From: a virus
IMG/VR virus record: IMGVR_UViG_3300023174_000078
Location: 1-64,000 of that record
Direction: 5' to 3' (one strand)
DNA: 64,000 nucleotides
Part shown: positions 1,383 through 25,520 of the stretch, piece after piece
Layout of the letters: each line of letters begins with the position of its first letter
How positions within the stretch are numbered: the first letter of the stretch is position 1
The notes under the pieces: generated by a model
Databases searched by the model: none
Told to the model about the DNA's origin: nothing
What the model saw: the letters and a program-made list of their open reading frames with translations, nothing else
Position numbers and translations under genes: made by a program

Positions 1383-2981
1383 ATGATTGAGTATCAAAAG
1401 TTAATGAGGCAGGTGTTAGAGAATGGTGTATATAAAATGGATAGGACCGGTACTGGTGCTATATCTGTTTTTGGTACACAGAGCCGTTACAATCTGGCGG
1501 ATGGTTTTCCGTTGGTGACCACCAAGAAAATGTTTACCCGTGGAGTAATTGGCGAACTTCTGTGGTTTATAGAAGGTAATACTAACGCGCATTACCTGGA
1601 AGAAAAATACGGAATTAAATTTTGGAAAGATTGGGCAGATCCTGAAACTGGAGAACTCGGACCTTTGTACGGTAAGCAGTTGAGAAACATTGAGTACTCT
1701 TACTGGGTAGAGCCTAAACTACGTGCGCAAGCGCCAGCAGAGTTAATCTTGAAAACTAATTACGATAAGAATGTTATTGTAGACTATTTATCCGGAGAAT
1801 CGGTATATCTGGGTAAAACAATCCAAACCAAAGAATGCGGACTATGTACAGTAGTTAAGGAGATTTCTGCGCCGTCTGGTAGAAACCAATTCGATGTGCA
1901 ATTCCACAATACTGGTTACATTCGGCGTGTAGATTACGCCGCTGTACAAACTGACACAATTAAGGATCCATACTGTCAGTCTGTATGCGGTGTAGGCTAT
2001 TACGGCGAGTTTGAAGAAGATGAACACACGCCTATATTGAAAACAGTATGGCGTGAAATGTTACGCCGATGCTATAACACTGAAAGCGACTCTTACAAAG
2101 GTTACGGGGCAAAAGGCGTACATGTGCATCCGTCATGGCTTTGCTTCGCTAATTTCAACAAGGATGCTAGAACTTTAACAAATTGGAATTGTCGTTTAGA
2201 GTATGGATCTGAATACGAGCTGGATAAAGATGTGCGCTATGCGGCCAATTACTACAGTAAAGAAACCTGCATGTGGTCTTCTAGACTGGAACAAGGTTAC
2301 AACACATCAACTAATAGACCTTTCAAATGCTTGAATCCCGCAGGAGAAGAAATTTTCTTAAAATCCGTAGGCGAGGCTAAAAGAAAATACAATCTGAATA
2401 TATCCGCTGTTCATCGTTGTTTAAACGGGGAACTTCAAACGCATCACGCCTGGAGTAATTTTGAGTATGTATATGAAGAAGGTAAAGTGTGTCGCACGCG
2501 TGTAATCGATCAACTAAAAGAAGTCATAGCTGAAATTAAACACAACCCTGACAGCAGAAGATTAATCATTAGCTTATACAATCCGCATGAAGTTGATAAA
2601 ATGAATTTACCGCCTTGTCATGGTAATATGATTCAATTCTTCGTAGACGATGAAAAAAGATTAAGCTTGCATATGTATCAAAGAAGCGGCGATGTATTCA
2701 TAGGAGTACCCGTAAATATTGCCAGCTATTCTTTGCTACTCATGATGGTAGCGCAAGTTACTGGGTATACAGCGCATGAATTTATACACACACTTGGTGA
2801 TGCGCATCTTTATGTGAACCATATTGAACAAGCTAAACTCCAACTTTCCCGGGAACCTCTGGAAGGTCCAGCTATGTTAATCAATCCAAATGTTAAAAAT
2901 ATTGATGATTTCAAATATACGGATTTTGAATTGCTGAACTACGAATGTTATCCTGCCATTAAAGCTGAGATTGCTGTTTAA
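1383..2981 (+). CDS. thyA: Thymidylate synthase with about 270-aa in-frame HNH-like endonuclease insertion
   Basis: [60 protein letters not shown] motifs; insert between YGKQLRN and IDQL. Confidence 0.95.
1689..2501 (+). mobile_element. Homing-endonuclease-like insert in thyA (phage HNH-like domain plus NUMOD1-like HTH); no intein termini visible
   Basis: WREMLRRCY...[21 protein letters not shown]...ELDKD...YYSKETCMW, then [22 protein letters not shown]; boundaries approximate. Confidence 0.75.
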
Positions 2982-20994: not shown

Positions 20995-21160
20995 ATTGTC
21001 ATCTAGACTGGCTCATCTTGAGAAATTAAAAGATGAGCCGGTTATGGATGATTTTGATTCTGGGCTTCATGCCGCGCGTCACGACGAATACGCATTTTTA
21101 AAAGAGGTTTTGAAAGAACATGGAGAATCCAAAGAAGGACAAGGTAATACCTGTTCCTGA
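20972..21160 (+). CDS. Small hypothetical protein
   Basis: 62-aa ORF bridging the flanking genes by overlaps. Confidence 0.5.
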   Translation: MNKKLQFKLSSRLAHLEKLKDEPVMDDFDSGLHAARHDEYAFLKEVLKEHGESKEGQGNTCS

Positions 21161-24100
21161 CTATACACTCCCGCCACTCTCTCTAGTCGAGAAGACTGGG
21201 TCTATAATCGGGCACAACGGTGTAACATTTATTGCTGGCGAGGGCATAAAACCTGCCGATATAATGTTTATTTCTTCTTGTGTCTCACCGCAAGAGGCTA
21301 GTAAATTTATTAAAGGAAAATATAATGAGGAGGGTGTTCGCGTGAGGCCTCGTTATCTTCGTTCTGACGCAGGTGTTATGTTTTCTGACATCTTTAATCA
21401 AGAAGGTATAGACTTATACAAGTGTTATTACACAGCTTTAGTAAAATGGTTACTACCTAAAAATGAGCGTATCAAAATCCCAAAGGATGTTATAGCCTGG
21501 GCATTGCCAGCGCTTGAAGCGGAGATACAAAGTGTTAATCCTAAAATTATAGTTTGTATAGGTAAGCCTGTATTTGATTTGCTTACTGAAATTAAACTAT
21601 CTTTGAGCGACGCTAAAAGTGGTTGGTTCTATAATAAAAAATATAATGCTAAATTATATTTAATAGATGACACGTACAAACTTGTTACTAATCCCGAATA
21701 CATCGGAAAGTTCAGGGTTGAGGCAAGGGAGATACACCGTATGCACAGAGAGGTATGCAATCTCGCTACAGATCGGATTCCTCTTGAGTACGAGACGATT
21801 ACTAACTCCGCCGATTTAAAACGTGTAGTCAGTAATTGGAAACAAAATAATTTCAATGTTATAAGCGTTGACTGTGAGTGGGCTGGTAATAACCACATTG
21901 ATGGACAACTTAGAAGTACACAGTTTTGCTGGGCTCCCGGTAAAGCTTGTTATGTCCGTTGGATGGATGACAAAGGTAACTATACTTTTGATACATCGTA
22001 TAAGGAGGCTGGTAGTATTTTATCTTCTTGGTTGGACCGTGAAGAGGTCAAGTATATAGGGCATCACTTTGCGGCTGACGCCCCGTGGCTGCATCATGTG
22101 CTTGGTTTGAATTGGTATGAGAAGTGTATATTCGATACCGAGTTTGCGCAGCAGACAGCGAATGAAGCTGAAGATCTTTCTTTAGAGCGTATAGCTTTGA
22201 AGTATACAGATCTGGGTCGTTATGATTTGGATCTTGTCCTATGGGTTAAACAAAATAAAGCTTTAATGGTTGATGGTGGTTACGGCGCAATACCTGATGA
22301 CATACTTATTCCTTATGCTTGTAAGGACGTAGATACTGTATTTCGTGCGTGGCCGTTTATACATCGCAGCCTGCAAATTCAAGACTTGTTGGATTACTAT
22401 AATAATGTGTTCCATCCTTTTGTGACGGATGTGTTCGTGAGTTTTGCTGTAGTGGGACTTCCGATGGATGTCGCTATGATGGATGAACTGCGAGTATTAT
22501 ACACATTTGCGCGCGACAAAATGGAAGTTGTGCTACGCGAAGATATTCATGTAGAGGCTAAGAATTTTATTTTGATGGCGTTTGCTACAAGACTCCCACC
22601 TGAGCTGGCAGCAAACTCCTATTTAGAATTTATTTCTTTAATAGCTAATTCGGATCATGCGCAGGCTTGGAGTATACTGAAGAGCGCAGCCAAGAAACCC
22701 GATGACGTACCTAAGTTAAAATTTATATTTGATCATTTTATTGATAGCTCGAATTTCAATATTCGGTCTGCGGCACACTTAAAACGTTGGTTGTTTCAGG
22801 TTAAAGGCTATGAGCCTATCAAATCAACCAACAACAAAGATAAGGGCCTGCCTGCAACATCTTGGGAGAAGATTAAAGCCATGCCTTTAGATGTGCAGAA
22901 AAATTATAATCCCGCAGTAGACAAACAGACGTTGCAGATTTTATCCGAACAAAATGACGATAGAATTCTGCGCAAACTTCTACAGCTGAATGCGGTCGGT
23001 AATATATGCAAAGCATTTCTTAAGGAGGCAGATACCGACGATGACGGTAATGTTCTAAAAGAGAACGGTCTTCATTTTTACCTATGCAGTGATAACCGCG
23101 TGCATGGTCAAATGAGCACCACAGAAACCGGACGACCTCGTAGCTGGAAGCCGAACTCCTTGAACTGGCCTAGTTATGTTAACTCTATGATTTCGAGTGG
23201 TATCTCAGATCTGTTTGGTAAACTAAAAGAACGCGACGAGTTACCGGAAGAGTTTGAGAAATTTATAATTAAGGACGATAAGGGAGACTACAAGATTAAG
23301 GTACCTTCTATACGTAGCTGTGTTAAAGCGCCGGATGATTGGTGTTTTGTGGAGTCTGACTACCAGACTGCGGAGATTAGAGGGCTGGCATTCATTTCTG
23401 GAGATAAGAATCTCATAGATATTGTATGCAATCCCGATTTAAATTTTGCAGTCACAAAAGATGACAAAAAAGTTAGACTATCTTTTCCGTCAGAAGTATT
23501 CCCTCCTTCCGCGCAGGAAGAATATAAGTCCCTCCTCATTTCCCCGGATGATCCCTCTTTAATGAGAAAAGAAGACGGTTCATTGAAACACCCAAAGCAG
23601 GACCTTCACTGGTCTCTGGCTGAGATGGTTCATATTAAGCCGAGAGAAGTTCTTGACGATAAAAAAGACCGTGGTGCGGCGAAGGTAGGAAATTTTTCGT
23701 GTATAGCTAAAGACTCCTACTTACACACGCCTTCAGGGCCAAAACTTGTTACTAACATATCACTTGACGACATGTTGTGGGATGGTGTAGAGTGGGTAAG
23801 TCATGAAGGTATACAGTACCAAGGAAATAGATGCACAATCAGATATCAAGGTCTGGCAGCAACCCCAGATCACGTCATCTGGCTTGCTAACGGAAATAAA
23901 TGTTGCTTCGGGGATGCCGCTATCAACGGCTGGAAAATCAAAGAGGAACAAACCCTTCCGATGTGCCGACCCCAGAGCCAAAATGCTAAGAGCCCGTTAT
24001 CACGCAATGATTCAGCGTTGCTACAAAGACACGCACGTATCTTCTGTAAATTACAAAGGCCGGGGAATAGAAGTATTATTCACTTCCCTGGGCGATTTTG

Positions 24101-25520
24101 TACAATGGGCTTTAGACCGGTGGCCGAATACAAACTTCAAAGGTTTGGATTTCGACCGTATAGACAATTCAGGGCATTACTCGAAAGAAAATCTGAGGCT
24201 CGTAACGCGCCTGATGAACTTGAGAAATACAAGAGCATCAAAGTGGTCTTTTCGCACACGCGCCGAAGCCATAATAACTGCTTATCCAGATTTACCAGTA
24301 GCGATGAGGACTATTTGGAATATGCTGCAAATGGGCATAACCGAAAAAGAGATATTCGAGAAAGTAAAGTCCGGAGAAATAAAGAGCCGGAAGGCTATAT
24401 TATCCAACGCGAAAGTATTACGAGCCAGGAAATTAATACAATTGAATCCGAGCCTGGGTGTAGGCGAGAAACAGATAATGAAATTATATCGGAAAGGATT
24501 AACCGATCAGGATATAGTAGCACATGTGGCCAAGCACAAAGAGTTAACTTTGCGTATTCGGAAAGCTATGCAACGCGAAGAGCACGCTTTACAACGTGCC
24601 GCCCGTTTAGGCATAGGCTTTGCAGACAGCACTATAAGGAAAATGATACGCGCGGGATTATCCGACGAACAGCTGATAGCAGCCTGGGAAAAAGCATCTT
24701 TAAAGTTAGAATCAGTCAGGCAGAAGATAGAGAGGCTTGGCTTAAAACTCAGCGCCGCTACTACTCACAGGTTGATGAAGCGGGGAATGTCGGATGTGCA
24801 GTTAGAAGAATATTCGAAGAAAAGGGTTTTAAGCTCACAAAAGAGCCAGTCTATGATATAATAAATGCGGGCCCTAGACGTAGATTTGTAGCTAACGGGT
24901 TGTTGGTTTCAAACTCAGCTTACGGCGCGTCTGCCTCTACGCTGGAGCGTAAAATCGAACAAGACACTGGTAAGAAACCAGAAGAAGGAACCGGGCAACG
25001 GCTACTTAAGGCGCTGGAAAAGCGTCAGCCTGTTGCGCAGGACTTCCTGATTAAAATGGAACGCGTACCTGAGAAGCCTGGATATTACCGCGCAGCCTCT
25101 GGAAGACTTCGTCATTTTTCTTCGCACGATCCTAAATACATCGACGAGATTGACGAGCAGTTGACTATGGGATTGTTCAGGTCTATGGGTAGAGAGGCTC
25201 GTAACTTTCCAATGCAAGAGAGTGTAGCTGCTACTGCCGCGCGAGCGGGCAAGTGGCTGCTGGACGCTTACATAAAGTTAGGTATGCAAGCCAGACCATT
25301 GATTATTTTATATGATTCTGTTGTTACTCTTTGTCCTCTTGAAGAACGCTTTAAGGTTGCGCAGCTGCACCAGCTCTTTATGACGGATGAGAACACCTGG
25401 ACGTACCACGGTCGAACGATGAACTATCCAATTGATCAATTGTTTTGCTACAGATGGTCCGATAAACCATCAAAAGATGAAACTAAACTGCTAGAAGACA
25501 AAACTTACAAAACTAACTGA
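21120..25520 (+). CDS. polA: Family A DNA polymerase with N-terminal UDG-like domain, 3'-5' exonuclease and intein
   Basis: SVDCEW (ExoI), HHFAAD, YACKD (ExoIII), TETGR, SDYQTAEIRGLA (motif A), AKVGNFS-intein-SAYG (motif B), NFPMQ, LYDS (motif C). Confidence 0.93.
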   Translation: MENPKKDKVIPVPDYTLPPLSLVEKTGSIIGHNGVTFIAGEGIKPADIMFISSCVSPQEASKFIKGKYNEEGVRVRPRYLRSDAGVMFSDIFNQEGIDLYKCYYTALVKWLLPKNERIKIPKDVIAWALPALEAEIQSVNPKIIVCIGKPVFDLLTEIKLSLSDAKSGWFYNKKYNAKLYLIDDTYKLVTNPEYIGKFRVEAREIHRMHREVCNLATDRIPLEYETITNSADLKRVVSNWKQNNFNVISVDCEWAGNNHIDGQLRSTQFCWAPGKACYVRWMDDKGNYTFDTSYKEAGSILSSWLDREEVKYIGHHFAADAPWLHHVLGLNWYEKCIFDTEFAQQTANEAEDLSLERIALKYTDLGRYDLDLVLWVKQNKALMVDGGYGAIPDDILIPYACKDVDTVFRAWPFIHRSLQIQDLLDYYNNVFHPFVTDVFVSFAVVGLPMDVAMMDELRVLYTFARDKMEVVLREDIHVEAKNFILMAFATRLPPELAANSYLEFISLIANSDHAQAWSILKSAAKKPDDVPKLKFIFDHFIDSSNFNIRSAAHLKRWLFQVKGYEPIKSTNNKDKGLPATSWEKIKAMPLDVQKNYNPAVDKQTLQILSEQNDDRILRKLLQLNAVGNICKAFLKEADTDDDGNVLKENGLHFYLCSDNRVHGQMSTTETGRPRSWKPNSLNWPSYVNSMISSGISDLFGKLKERDELPEEFEKFIIKDDKGDYKIKVPSIRSCVKAPDDWCFVESDYQTAEIRGLAFISGDKNLIDIVCNPDLNFAVTKDDKKVRLSFPSEVFPPSAQEEYKSLLISPDDPSLMRKEDGSLKHPKQDLHWSLAEMVHIKPREVLDDKKDRGAAKVGNFSCIAKDSYLHTPSGPKLVTNISLDDMLWDGVEWVSHEGIQYQGNRCTIRYQGLAATPDHVIWLANGNKCCFGDAAINGWKIKEEQTLPMCRPQSQNAKSPLSRNDSALLQRHARIFCKLQRPGNRSIIHFPGRFCTMGFRPVAEYKLQRFGFRPYRQFRALLERKSEARNAPDELEKYKSIKVVFSHTRRSHNNCLSRFTSSDEDYLEYAANGHNRKRDIRESKVRRNKEPEGYIIQRESITSQEINTIESEPGCRRETDNEIISERINRSGYSSTCGQAQRVNFAYSESYATRRARFTTCRPFRHRLCRQHYKENDTRGIIRRTADSSLGKSIFKVRISQAEDREAWLKTQRRYYSQVDEAGNVGCAVRRIFEEKGFKLTKEPVYDIINAGPRRRFVANGLLVSNSAYGASASTLERKIEQDTGKKPEEGTGQRLLKALEKRQPVAQDFLIKMERVPEKPGYYRAASGRLRHFSSHDPKYIDEIDEQLTMGLFRSMGREARNFPMQESVAATAARAGKWLLDAYIKLGMQARPLIILYDSVVTLCPLEERFKVAQLHQLFMTDENTWTYHGRTMNYPIDQLFCYRWSDKPSKDETKLLEDKTYKTN
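23700..24914 (+). mobile_element. Intein in PolA motif B (405 aa; C1...SN/S+1)
   Basis: CIAKDSYLHT block A, ATPDH block B, VYDIINAGPRRRFVANGLLVSN blocks F/G; removal restores AKVGNFSSAYG. Confidence 0.9.
23803..24861 (+). CDS. HNH homing endonuclease in the +1 frame inside the PolA intein (possible start ATG 23914)
   Basis: RYHAMIQRCY...NYKGRGIEV...FVQWA...DFDRIDNSGHYSKENLRLVT...NLRN, followed by repeated HTH-like segments. Confidence 0.85.
   Translation: MKVYSTKEIDAQSDIKVWQQPQITSSGLLTEINVASGMPLSTAGKSKRNKPFRCADPRAKMLRARYHAMIQRCYKDTHVSSVNYKGRGIEVLFTSLGDFVQWALDRWPNTNFKGLDFDRIDNSGHYSKENLRLVTRLMNLRNTRASKWSFRTRAEAIITAYPDLPVAMRTIWNMLQMGITEKEIFEKVKSGEIKSRKAILSNAKVLRARKLIQLNPSLGVGEKQIMKLYRKGLTDQDIVAHVAKHKELTLRIRKAMQREEHALQRAARLGIGFADSTIRKMIRAGLSDEQLIAAWEKASLKLESVRQKIERLGLKLSAATTHRLMKRGMSDVQLEEYSKKRVLSSQKSQSMI

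What the first reader, a model, noticed from the sequence alone, without database searches (positions are those of the whole stretch)
23700..24914. Dual-coding intein: the homing endonuclease is overprinted in the +1 frame while the intein frame stays open
Seen: the PolA frame has a complete intein (C1 at 23700, TxxH, SN/S at 24914), but its central ~300 codons are Arg/Ser-rich with no recognisable motif. The +1 frame (23803/23914-24861) encodes a clear HNH endonuclease (YHAMIQRCY, YKGRGI, DRIDNSGHYSKENLR) plus HTH-like repeats and stops inside intein block F. Both frames are stop-free for over 900 nt in AT-rich DNA. Known: intein endonucleases are normally in frame. Inference: a free HNH gene entered a mini-intein out of frame and stops were purged. 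The endonuclease would then be made by internal initiation or frameshifting, uncoupled from polymerase synthesis.
Basis: partly seen in the sequence, partly recalled or inferred. Interest (0 to 1): 0.78.

Follow-up and report, generated by a model that had tools for sequence, protein, structure and literature searches.

The report
Polymerase intein with overlapping out-of-frame nuclease gene
A lake phage's DNA polymerase gene carries a self-splicing protein insert (intein) whose middle also encodes, one base out of step, a separate conserved nuclease-like gene that probably spreads the insert; the layout is real and kept by selection, but this kind of intein is already described.

Summary
PolA (21120-25520) is interrupted in motif B by a 405-codon intein (23700-24914; Cys1, TPDH, terminal Asn, +1 Ser). 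Its frame has no stop. The +1 frame holds a 352-codon ORF (23803-24861) that matches PHROG HNH families (E 7.5e-23).

The open intein frame is not chance. None of 83 at-risk HNH codons ends in T, against 53 of 208 others, and none of 20,000 synonymous shuffles is stop-free. The layout recurs in 10 further distinct viral sequences. Sixteen free-standing relatives carry 6-55 stops in that frame.

Substitutions follow the intein frame at both ends and the +1 frame in the middle. The +1 protein models at pLDDT 91.8. The intein-frame middle (residues 86-339) models as disordered between HINT-fold ends.

An independent metagenome holds the same sequence without indels. Other lakes hold a precise intein-less allele and a second intein type at the site.

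Not shown: splicing, how the +1 gene is translated, and nuclease activity. The family has Arg where HNH enzymes have the catalytic His.

Out-of-frame intein endonucleases are in print (2015 note, 2025-26 preprints). This scan has met this PolA family before on other DNA. Verdict: new member of a known kind.

The parts
21120..23699 (+). PolA N-extein (UDG-like, 3'-5' exonuclease and polymerase domains up to motif B ...RGAAKVGNFS)
   Evidence: ORF. Pfam PF03167, PF01612 and PF00476 match.
23700..23954 (+). Intein N-terminal splicing domain, residues 1-85 (Cys1; block B TPDH at 23862-23873)
   Evidence: pLDDT about 90 and beta-rich. Foldseek hits are inteins/HINT domains. Substitutions fall at frame-0 third positions. 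C1, T55 and H58 are invariant in 12 of 12 sequences.
23955..24716 (+). Frame-0 read-through of the +1 gene: a 254-residue Arg/Ser-rich linker inside the intein, stop-free
   Evidence: 0 stops against 13.6 expected. pLDDT below 50 with no secondary structure. Arg 15.4% and Ser 10.2%. Substitutions fall at frame-0 first positions.
24717..24914 (+). Intein C-terminal splicing domain, residues 340-405 (VYDIINAGPRRRF...VSN), followed by +1 Ser at 24915
   Evidence: pLDDT 70-91. D386, G391, P392, R395, F396 and N405 are invariant. Substitutions return to frame-0 third positions.
24915..25520 (+). PolA C-extein (SAYGAS... to the stop)
23914..24861 (+). HNH-like homing-endonuclease gene in the +1 frame. 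The start is not settled: ATG 23914 is preferred (ATG in L003, TTG in L007 at the same place). Alternatives are ATG 23983 and ATG 23803. The stop TAA is at 24859-24861.
   Evidence: PHROG phrog_3377 E 7.5e-23. The +1-frame constraint begins near offset 240 of the intein. 70-88% amino-acid identity in L003, L005 and L007. pLDDT 91.8.
24154..24228 (+). Conserved core motif of the +1 protein: D81-R82-I-D-N85 ... Y89 ... N93-L-R-L ... N105
   Evidence: G51, R82, Y89, N93 and N105 are invariant in 52 sequences. The N..N part aligns to I-HmuI 1u3e at E 0.064.
24334..24804 (+). Four helical repeat modules of the +1 protein (cores at 24334, 24496, 24655, 24784), a presumed DNA-binding part
   Evidence: Regex and contexts. 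Modelled as helices. Only weak matches to three-helix bundles.

Best explanation
A class-1-type intein sits in motif B of the phage's family A DNA polymerase. Its mobility gene is not fused in frame. It is a separate HNH-like gene written in the +1 frame over the intein's middle.

Ribosomes making PolA read straight through that stretch in frame 0. This gives a roughly 254-residue disordered Arg/Ser-rich linker between the two halves of the HINT splicing domain. Protein splicing then removes the whole 405-residue insert and restores motif B (inferred). Because PolA must be made, any stop in frame 0 is lethal. The +1 gene is therefore confined to codon choices that never create one (shown).

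The +1 protein is made on its own, most likely by internal initiation near 23914 (inferred). It is presumed to cut or nick intein-less polA alleles of co-infecting phages, so that repair copies the intein plus gene into them (inferred from family, from polymorphism and from shared flanks).
For: 1. Two-frame layout and its statistics. The same result holds in W, L003, L007, L005 and L004: 0 of 100, 102, 110, 122 and 78 at-risk codons end in T, and 0 of 2000 shuffles are stop-free in each. It also holds in L011, L012, L013, L015, L017 and L018: 0 stops against means of 7.0-13.9, and 0 of 1000 shuffles each.

2. Control: 16 free-standing relatives have 6-55 stops in the same relative frame, matching their shuffle means of 8.4-44.3.

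3. Which frame is under selection (W vs L007, differences at frame-0 positions 1/2/3). Offsets 0-179: 11/8/26. Offsets 270-1079: 143/74/39, which is the 3>1>2 pattern of the +1 frame. Offsets 1080-1214: 6/5/18. HNH identity is 87, 72.5 and 69.9%, against 74.8, 44.7 and 51.1% for the intein frame.

4. Structure. The +1 protein models at mean pLDDT 91.8. In the intein frame, residues 1-85 have pLDDT about 90, residues 86-339 are below 50 without secondary structure, and the last 66 are at 70-91. All 44 listed Foldseek rows (ranks 1-50, with gaps) are inteins or other HINT domains; gp41-1 intein scores E 3.1e-4.

5. The intein is a discrete insert. L002 and L006 lack it exactly. A contig of run X5 joins 23698 to 24915.

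6. Not an assembly error. Run X2, from a different study, covers 23400-25119 with 1 base difference and 0 gaps.

7. Mobility. Near-identical exteins in lake metagenomes carry this intein (X2), another intein type one codon upstream (X3, X4), or none (X5). W, L003 and L007 share the last 40 nt of the 5' flank (2 and 6 differences). The intein-less L002 and L006 differ from W at 12 each (my count).

8. Breadth. 30 of 57 proteins found with the intein region carry the frame-0 read-through signature.
Against: - Splicing, separate translation and nuclease activity were not observed, and no RNA run holds the stretch.
- The penultimate intein residue is Ser, not the usual His.
- No start codon is conserved across the nested clade. 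L011 has no ATG upstream of its Zn-ribbon. The phage uses no Shine-Dalgarno sites (GGAG upstream of 3 of 92 ORFs), so no ribosome-binding site can be pointed to.
- The +1 family has no conserved His. Arg is invariant at the position that (from recall) holds the HNH general base.
- No Pfam or NCBIfam model matches. The fold search gives only PacI at Z 5.2 and nothing by Foldseek.
- How an out-of-frame gene could enter without stops is unexplained.
- P0059 shows that a form with the HNH in frame with the N-intein exists, at least as a gene call.
Confidence: 0.82

Rival explanations
1. Assembly or sequencing artefact: two compensating indels hide an ordinary in-frame HNH intein.
For: None was found.
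Against: If the HNH were really in frame, the present frame 0 would be non-coding in the middle and should carry about 14 stops; it has none. The same frame relation holds in 10 further distinct viral sequences. Run X2, from another study, gives the same sequence with 0 gaps (these are contigs, not raw reads).
Confidence: 0.01
2. The +1 protein is made by programmed ribosomal frameshifting out of the PolA frame, as an N-extein/N-intein/HNH fusion, and not by separate initiation.
For: P0059 (1177 aa) is such a fusion hard-wired in frame. The +1 frame is open from 23800 in all five close relatives. No conserved start codon or ribosome-binding site was found.
Against: The open stretch 23803-23940 is within chance. 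+1-frame amino-acid conservation starts only near offset 240. I did not notice a slippery site, but I ran no search for one. The DNA of P0059 could not be fetched, so it may be an indel in one assembly. A 1200-residue fusion is an unlikely homing enzyme.
Confidence: 0.07
3. The +1 gene is no longer a nuclease. It is a DNA-binding or otherwise domesticated protein, or an inactive passenger, and the intein now persists mainly by vertical descent.
For: Arg is invariant where the catalytic His is expected, and no His column is conserved in 52 sequences. No Pfam or NCBIfam HNH model matches. The window's lineage has lost the N-terminal Zn-ribbon that L004, L005, L011 and others keep.
Against: The Arg is a trait of the whole family, including the many free-standing copies scattered through phage genomes, which behave like mobile genes. 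The +1 frame is under purifying selection. Presence/absence and intein-type polymorphism occurs on near-identical exteins. The family occupies motif B in very different PolA genes.
Confidence: 0.1

Closest known systems
Actinobacteriophage 'non-canonical' inteins with an endonuclease VII-like gene in reading frame 3 of the intein (Gosselin, Arsenault & Gogarten, bioRxiv 10.1101/2025.01.02.630785; abstract, sections 8 and 15 and searched passages read)
   Same: The intein frame is open and continuous. The endonuclease lies on the same strand in another frame, between the splicing blocks. The in-frame middle models as unstructured. The endonuclease is related to free-standing phage genes. Intein-less alleles occur among close relatives.
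   Different: Here the gene is in frame 2 (+1), from a different nuclease-like family (PHROG HNH families, D-R-I-D-N core). The host gene is family A PolA motif B; their hosts are named as DNA polymerase (listed as Pol III alpha), minor capsid, terminase and thymidylate synthase. The phages are uncultured lake phages. Their supplementary tables could not be opened, so overlap with their set cannot be excluded.
[quoted passage not shown]
   Same: An out-of-frame endonuclease gene inside an intein. Intein-free and intein-bearing alleles coexist in natural populations. The authors propose secondary invasion of a mini-intein.
   Different: It is a cellular gene (dnaX). The endonuclease family and the host differ.
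Brucellaphage large-terminase intein with an HNH gene 'located out of frame' (PMC4422536, Virol J 2015; one passage read)
   Same: An HNH gene lies out of frame within an intein-bearing phage gene.
   Different: The host gene is the terminase. The paper only mentions it in passing, without statistics on the open frame.
ShiLan insertion: out-of-frame HNH inside a mycobacteriophage DNA methylase (PMC11855218; abstract and section 4.3 read)
   Same: A hidden HNH gene in another frame of an insertion that is stop-free in the host frame. The same open question of how it is translated.
   Different: ShiLan has no splicing domains. Here both HINT halves are present and conserved.
Fractured genes: split inteins flanking a free-standing endonuclease gene (Dassa et al. 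2009, PMC2677866; searched passages read)
   Same: A free-standing-type endonuclease gene lies between the two intein halves. The 3' end of the endonuclease gene overlaps the C-intein coding region.
   Different: There the host gene is broken into two ORFs that are joined by trans-splicing. Here the host frame is continuous.

Membership tests
Intein (HINT domain, class 1 type) | Nucleophile (Cys/Ser) as first residue | tested here: met
   Cys at 23700. C1 is invariant in 12 of 12 aligned inteins.
Intein (HINT domain, class 1 type) | Block B T-x-x-H | tested here: met
   TPDH at 23862-23873. T55 and H58 are invariant in 12 of 12.
Intein (HINT domain, class 1 type) | C-terminal Asn followed by Ser/Thr/Cys in the extein | tested here: met
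   ...VSN|S at 24914/24915. N405 is invariant. The next residue is S, T or C in all 12. The penultimate residue is Ser here and His in L015, L018 and L040. From recall, His is common at this position but not obligatory.
Intein (HINT domain, class 1 type) | HINT fold of the joined N- and C-terminal parts | tested here: met
   In the model, residues 1-85 and 340-405 are confident. All 44 listed Foldseek rows are inteins or other HINT domains, the best at E 3.1e-4 with probability 1.00. Sequence profiles alone did not reach significance.
Intein (HINT domain, class 1 type) | Precise insertion that interrupts a conserved host motif and is absent from homologous alleles | tested here: met
   Motif B is restored on removal. 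L002 and L006 and a contig of run X5 lack exactly 23700-24914.
Intein (HINT domain, class 1 type) | Protein splicing activity | not testable with these tools
   Inferred only, from the need for PolA and from the stop-free frame.
HNH (beta-beta-alpha-metal) endonuclease | Match to family profiles | tested here: inconclusive
   PHROG families annotated HNH match (phrog_3377 E 7.5e-23, phrog_374 6.1e-20). No Pfam or NCBIfam model matches the protein or any of 52 relatives. I-HmuI (1u3e) matches at E 0.064 over the N..N segment only.
HNH (beta-beta-alpha-metal) endonuclease | Conserved general-base His before the two Asn/His of the motif | tested here: not met
   The 52-sequence alignment shows D81-R82 with R82 invariant, N93 and N105 invariant, and no invariant or nearly invariant His. 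Placing R82 at the His position rests on my recall of the motif, not on a structural superposition. I therefore call the protein HNH-like.
HNH (beta-beta-alpha-metal) endonuclease | Beta-beta-alpha-metal fold | tested here: inconclusive
   Foldseek found no match at E <= 0.001. VIA-align gives PacI 3m7k at Z 5.2, rmsd 6.4, 98 residues aligned, model residues 13-124, which is within the noise range stated by the tool. The domain was not folded alone.
Inteins with a homing endonuclease in a separate reading frame (2025-26 preprints) | Continuous open intein/extein frame, with a complete endonuclease-type ORF in another frame between the splicing blocks | tested here: met
Inteins with a homing endonuclease in a separate reading frame (2025-26 preprints) | The nested gene is related to free-standing endonuclease genes | tested here: met
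   18 of 29 viral loci and 50 of 51 metagenome loci with relatives are free-standing. Enterococcus-phage genes annotated HNH align from residue 1 of the query, which starts at ATG 23983.
Fractured gene / split intein (Dassa 2009) | Host gene divided into two ORFs by a stop and a new start | tested here: not met
   Frame 0 has no stop from 21120 to 25520.
Homing endonuclease gene (functional sense) | Presence/absence polymorphism at one site on otherwise similar alleles | tested here: met
   Runs X2, X3/X4 and X5. L002 and L006 against L003.
Homing endonuclease gene (functional sense) | Cleavage of the empty site and gene conversion | not testable with these tools

The most novel reading that the evidence does not exclude
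Out-of-frame nesting is not a passing accident of invasion. It is an old, stable way of life for one lineage of HNH-like genes. The nested clade spans 35-88% identity to the window's protein. It occupies four slightly different points of PolA motif B in unrelated phage polymerases. It occurs in both alternative frames: +1 here and +2 in L040. It has kept the host frame stop-free throughout.

On this reading the intein serves as a safe harbour for a free-standing-type gene whose product needs no structural fit with the splicing domain. The enzyme itself may work without the canonical catalytic His, since Arg and Tyr are invariant instead.
Probability: 0.4. Interest if true: 0.6.

Novelty: new member of a known kind. 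Interest (0 to 1): 0.42.

Why it matters
Gene callers annotate only the long polymerase ORF, so these nested nuclease genes go unannotated, and the intein middle looks like meaningless low-complexity protein. The case gives a clean, quantified example of a long overlap (about 900 nt) in which one frame is selected for protein sequence and the other only for the absence of stops.

It also offers natural material for three open questions about inteins. How do they acquire endonucleases? How is an internal overlapping gene translated in a phage that uses no Shine-Dalgarno sites? Why do intein-free, intein-bearing and differently invaded alleles coexist in one habitat?

The arrangement itself is already in the literature, and this scan has seen it repeatedly, so it is not a discovery of a new kind.

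Tried and rejected
DNA-level relatives among isolated phages: none. The closest isolate PolA proteins are under 25% identical, so neither phage group nor host could be named. The absence of Shine-Dalgarno motifs only hints at a host type.

Pfam and NCBIfam on both frames: no useful match.

PDB sequence search with the intein profile: nothing significant; two intein chains appear only at E 0.88 and 0.95.

Foldseek on the whole +1 model: no match at E <= 0.001. VIA-align: only weak rows.

No paralogue of the +1 gene elsewhere in the 121,276-bp genome.

The idea that the +1 frame's openness from 23803 proves a long N-terminal overlap was rejected, because it is within chance.

Promoter scan: 5 sigma-70-like sites against 2.1 +/- 1.5 in shuffles. 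One (TTGACG-18-TAGAGT, 23764-23793) lies just before ATG 23803, but it sits inside conserved intein codons and the host's promoter type is unknown. It is not used as evidence.

RNA evidence: no RNA holder listed for the stretch.

DNA for the more distant protein hits (P0002, P0003, P0005, P0024) and for P0059 could not be obtained. The +1 relation for the 30 of 57 proteins therefore rests on the read-through signature, whose HMM comes from Arg/Ser/Gly-rich sequences and may be somewhat inflated.

Rows dropped before counts. In one search, L008, L009, L010 and L014 were left out because they are the same contigs as L007, L005, L003 and L004. L016, L021 and L036 were left out as duplicates of L015, L020 and L035 (for L021 and L036 judged only from identical rows). 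In one search, L100 scored 'nested', but only on a 171-nt ORF, and I count it as an artefact.

Supplementary files of the papers were closed. The preprint's supplementary tables may list which exteins carry its out-of-frame endonucleases.

Searches behind the statement that the PolA motif-B family is not in print.
Full report
**What is there.** The window holds a 1466-codon ORF (21120-25520, + strand) with uracil-DNA-glycosylase-like, 3'-5' exonuclease and family A polymerase domains. At 23700 the polymerase sequence breaks off inside motif B (...RGAAKVGNFS). It resumes at 24915 (SAYGAS...). The 405 codons between start with Cys, contain TPDH at 23862-23873 and end in ...VSN, and the next residue is Ser. 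In the frame shifted by +1, an ORF of 352 codons runs from 23803 to a TAA at 24859-24861. That stop lies inside the codons of the conserved VYDIINAGP block of the intein's C-terminal part. Within 23700-24914, frame 0 has no stop. Frame +1 has none between 23800 and 24858. Frame +2 has 52, and the minus-strand frames have 13, 15 and 33.

**Is the double open frame more than chance?** The intein frame reads the last base of one +1 codon and the first two of the next. A stop therefore arises whenever a +1 codon ending in T is followed by one starting AA, AG or GA. The +1 gene has 83 such positions between 23983 and 24858, and none of the 83 preceding codons ends in T. Among the other codons, 53 of 208 end in T. 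Permuting synonymous codons among the same amino-acid positions gives 13.6 stops on average, and none of 20,000 permutations is stop-free. By contrast, the open +1 stretch upstream of the conserved part (23803 to about 23940) is unremarkable: 10-100% of shuffles of the intein codons leave it open.

**Relatives.** Viral-contig scans with the extein and with the +1 protein found seven loci from six contigs of the same phage group.
- Two (L002, L006; about 91% extein identity) have no insert at this point.
- Four carry an insert: L003 (same contig as L001), L007, L005 and L004. In each, the polymerase frame is stop-free and the HNH-like gene lies in the +1 frame.

The codon test gives the same result in all five sequences, window included: 0 of 100, 102, 110, 122 and 78 at-risk codons end in T, and 0 of 2000 shuffles are stop-free in each.

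A scan with the alignment of the +1 proteins gave 29 loci.
- The 11 closest (E <= 2e-25) are all nested in the +1 frame of an open host ORF. Four of them repeat contigs already in hand, and L015 and L016 have the same sequence. This leaves six new sequences.
- The 18 more distant loci are free-standing genes with stop-filled alternative frames.

The six new nested genes show 0 stops against 7.0-13.9 expected, and 0 of 1000 shuffles are stop-free in each. Sixteen free-standing relatives show 6-55 stops, in line with their shuffle means. The codon pattern therefore belongs to the nested state, not to the gene family.

The new hosts are very different family A polymerases, including a 794-residue T7-like one. 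The insert always sits in motif B, but at four slightly different points: after NFS, after NF, after NFG[LF] and after AKG. A further sequence, found in three near-identical contigs (L039-L041), has a related gene nested in the +2 frame of a motif-B intein: 0 stops against 4.1 expected, and 4 of 1000 shuffles stop-free.

Among 57 proteins that share words with the intein region, 30 carry the recognisable frame-0 read-through of such a gene, among them a helicase (P0039) with a borderline match at E 1e-4.

**Which frame is selected where.** W, L003 and L007 are collinear without gaps. The table gives W vs L007 differences by frame-0 codon position.

| Intein offsets (nt) | pos 1 | pos 2 | pos 3 | Reading |
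|---|---|---|---|---|
| 0-179 | 11 | 8 | 26 | frame 0 coding |
| 270-1079 | 143 | 74 | 39 | pos 1 is the +1 gene's third position, so +1 coding |
| 1080-1214 | 6 | 5 | 18 | frame 0 coding |

The switch occurs near offset 240. Accordingly the +1 protein is 87, 72.5 and 69.9% identical in L003, L005 and L007. The intein-frame translation is only 74.8, 44.7 and 51.1% identical. The middle of the intein frame is thus constrained only not to stop. The last approximately 20 codons of the +1 gene overlap the conserved C-terminal splicing part.

**Structure.** With a 52-sequence alignment, the +1 protein (from 23914) models at mean pLDDT 91.8, and only its first 11 residues are uncertain. The intein-frame protein, with 12 sequences, models as follows:
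- Residues 1-85: pLDDT about 90, beta-rich.
- Residues 86-339: pLDDT below 50, no secondary structure at all.
- Residues 340-405: pLDDT 70-91.

All 44 listed Foldseek rows for this model are inteins or other HINT domains (gp41-1 intein E 3.1e-4, probability 1.00; Npu DnaE TM 0.52 on the target). The linker is 15.4% Arg and 10.2% Ser, against 4.8% and 6.3% in the extein. The intein assignment therefore rests on Cys1, TxxH, the terminal Asn, the +1 nucleophile, the HINT fold and the precise absence of the insert in relatives. Sequence profiles alone (Pfam, PDB) did not detect it.

**What the +1 protein is.** PHROG families annotated as HNH endonuclease match it: phrog_3377 at E 7.5e-23 and phrog_374 at 6.1e-20, with a weak match to an endonuclease VII family at 1.1e-3. 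HMMER against 1.84 billion representatives finds 6479 relatives at E <= 1e-3. tblastn finds genes annotated HNH endonuclease in Enterococcus and other phages.

No Pfam or NCBIfam model matches it or any of 52 relatives. A profile search of the PDB gives I-HmuI only at E 0.064, over the N-L-R...N segment. The fold search gives the HNH enzyme PacI only at Z 5.2.

The family's invariant residues are G51, R82, Y89, N93 and N105, within D-R-I-D-N-x-G-x-Y-x-x-x-N-L-R-L...N. By my recall of the HNH motif, R82 stands where the general-base His should be, and no His column is conserved. I therefore call the protein HNH-like and treat nuclease activity as inferred.

Relatives L004, L005, L011-L013, L015, L017 and L018 carry an extra N-terminal CxxC...CxC ribbon that the window's lineage lacks. 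The C-terminal half consists of four helical repeat modules.

**Errors excluded; population picture.** Logan contigs of run X2, from a different study than the likely source, cover 23400-25119 in two pieces with 1 base difference and no gap. A contig of run X5 joins 23698 to 24915 with one replaced base. It is a precise intein-less allele, with 20 differences in the 299 nt upstream and none in the 286 nt downstream. Contigs of X3 and X4 follow the extein up to 23695 and from 24915, and then run into the other intein type seen in L004, which is inserted one codon earlier.

Lake metagenomes thus hold three states of nearly the same polymerase gene. These are contigs, not reads, so frequencies are unknown.

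In the last 40 nt before the insertion point, W differs from the intein-bearing L003 and L007 at 2 and 6 positions. It differs from the intein-less L002 and L006 at 12 each, and from L005 at 10 (my count). This fits co-conversion of the 5' flank but is not a test of it.

**How it most likely works.**
- Shown: the intein frame is translated through (otherwise stops would not be purged), and the +1 frame encodes a protein under purifying selection.
- Inferred: the precursor splices. The +1 gene is translated separately. Its product cuts empty sites.

The start codon is open. ATG 23914 is matched by ATG in L003 and TTG in L007, and it lies just before the +1 constraint begins. ATG 23983 is where phage homologues begin to align. 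ATG 23803 is conserved, but it lies inside conserved intein codons. The genome shows A/T-rich leaders and almost no Shine-Dalgarno motifs (GGAG upstream of 3 of 92 ORFs), so no ribosome-binding site can be named.

One library protein, P0059, has the HNH part in frame with the N-extein and N-intein and ends at the HNH stop. Its DNA could not be found. It may be an indel, a split form or a hint of frameshifting.

How a gene that normally carries 6-55 stops in this frame came to lie stop-free in an essential gene remains unexplained.

**Comparison with what is known.** The kind is in print:
- A 2025 preprint describes actinobacteriophage inteins with an endonuclease VII-like gene in frame 3 and with antisense endonucleases. 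It proposes invasion of inteins by free-standing genes.
- A 2026 preprint describes an out-of-frame endonuclease in the cyanobacterial dnaX intein, with coexisting alleles (abstract).
- A 2025 paper describes an out-of-frame HNH in a methylase insertion that has no splicing domains.
- Dassa et al. 2009 describe the split-gene counterpart.

Six full-text searches found no paper on a family A PolA motif-B intein with a +1 HNH-like gene.

The scan's own notes show that this same PolA family was met before on other genomes, and that more than 300 notes concern out-of-frame intein endonucleases. I used them as leads to the 2015 paper and the 2026 preprint, and I checked both.

**Verdict.** This is a new member of a known kind: well documented here by codon statistics, controls, models and population data, but neither surprising to a specialist who knows the 2025-26 work nor new to this scan.

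Noticed in passing
L007:4324-4553 and L007:6638-6916: The related phage's polA carries two group I introns (Rfam RF00028, 89.4 and 70.6 bits) in addition to the motif-B intein, so one gene holds three mobile elements.
   Followed up: partly
L040:3031-3984 (also L039, L041): Another PolA motif-B intein holds a related HNH-like gene in the +2 frame instead of +1. The host frame has 0 stops against 4.1 expected.
   Followed up: partly
protein P0059 (no DNA held): This 1177-residue gene call fuses the PolA N-extein and N-intein in frame to the HNH-like protein and ends at its stop. It could be a split or in-frame variant, or an indel. Neither the viral nor the metagenome scan found a close relative.
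   Followed up: partly
L013:1-3411: By eye, this PolA fragment has two further intein-like inserts upstream of the nested one. One has an HNH-type middle in frame, and the other looks LAGLIDADG-like. Neither was verified.
   Followed up: no
protein P0013, residues about 700-1000: A second intein in this PolA (after ...TGRPR) has an Arg/Ser/Gly-rich, junk-like middle. It may hide another out-of-frame gene.
   Followed up: no
L005:3193-4001: An insertion of about 800 nt in the N-extein of this relative's polA. It has no Rfam match and was not examined further.
   Followed up: no
whole genome G000 (window 1-64000 and beyond): Upstream regions of 92 long ORFs are A/T-rich and G-poor, with almost no Shine-Dalgarno motifs (GGAG in 3 of 92). 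This suggests a host that does not use them.
   Followed up: partly
window 23764-23793: A sigma-70-like TTGACG-18-TAGAGT lies about 10 nt before ATG 23803 and is kept in L003 and L007. It sits inside conserved intein codons, so it may mean nothing.
   Followed up: no
window 1689-2501: An earlier scan note reports an endonuclease-like insert within ThyA that has no intein or intron signals. It recalls the ShiLan-type insertion. I did not look at it.
   Followed up: no
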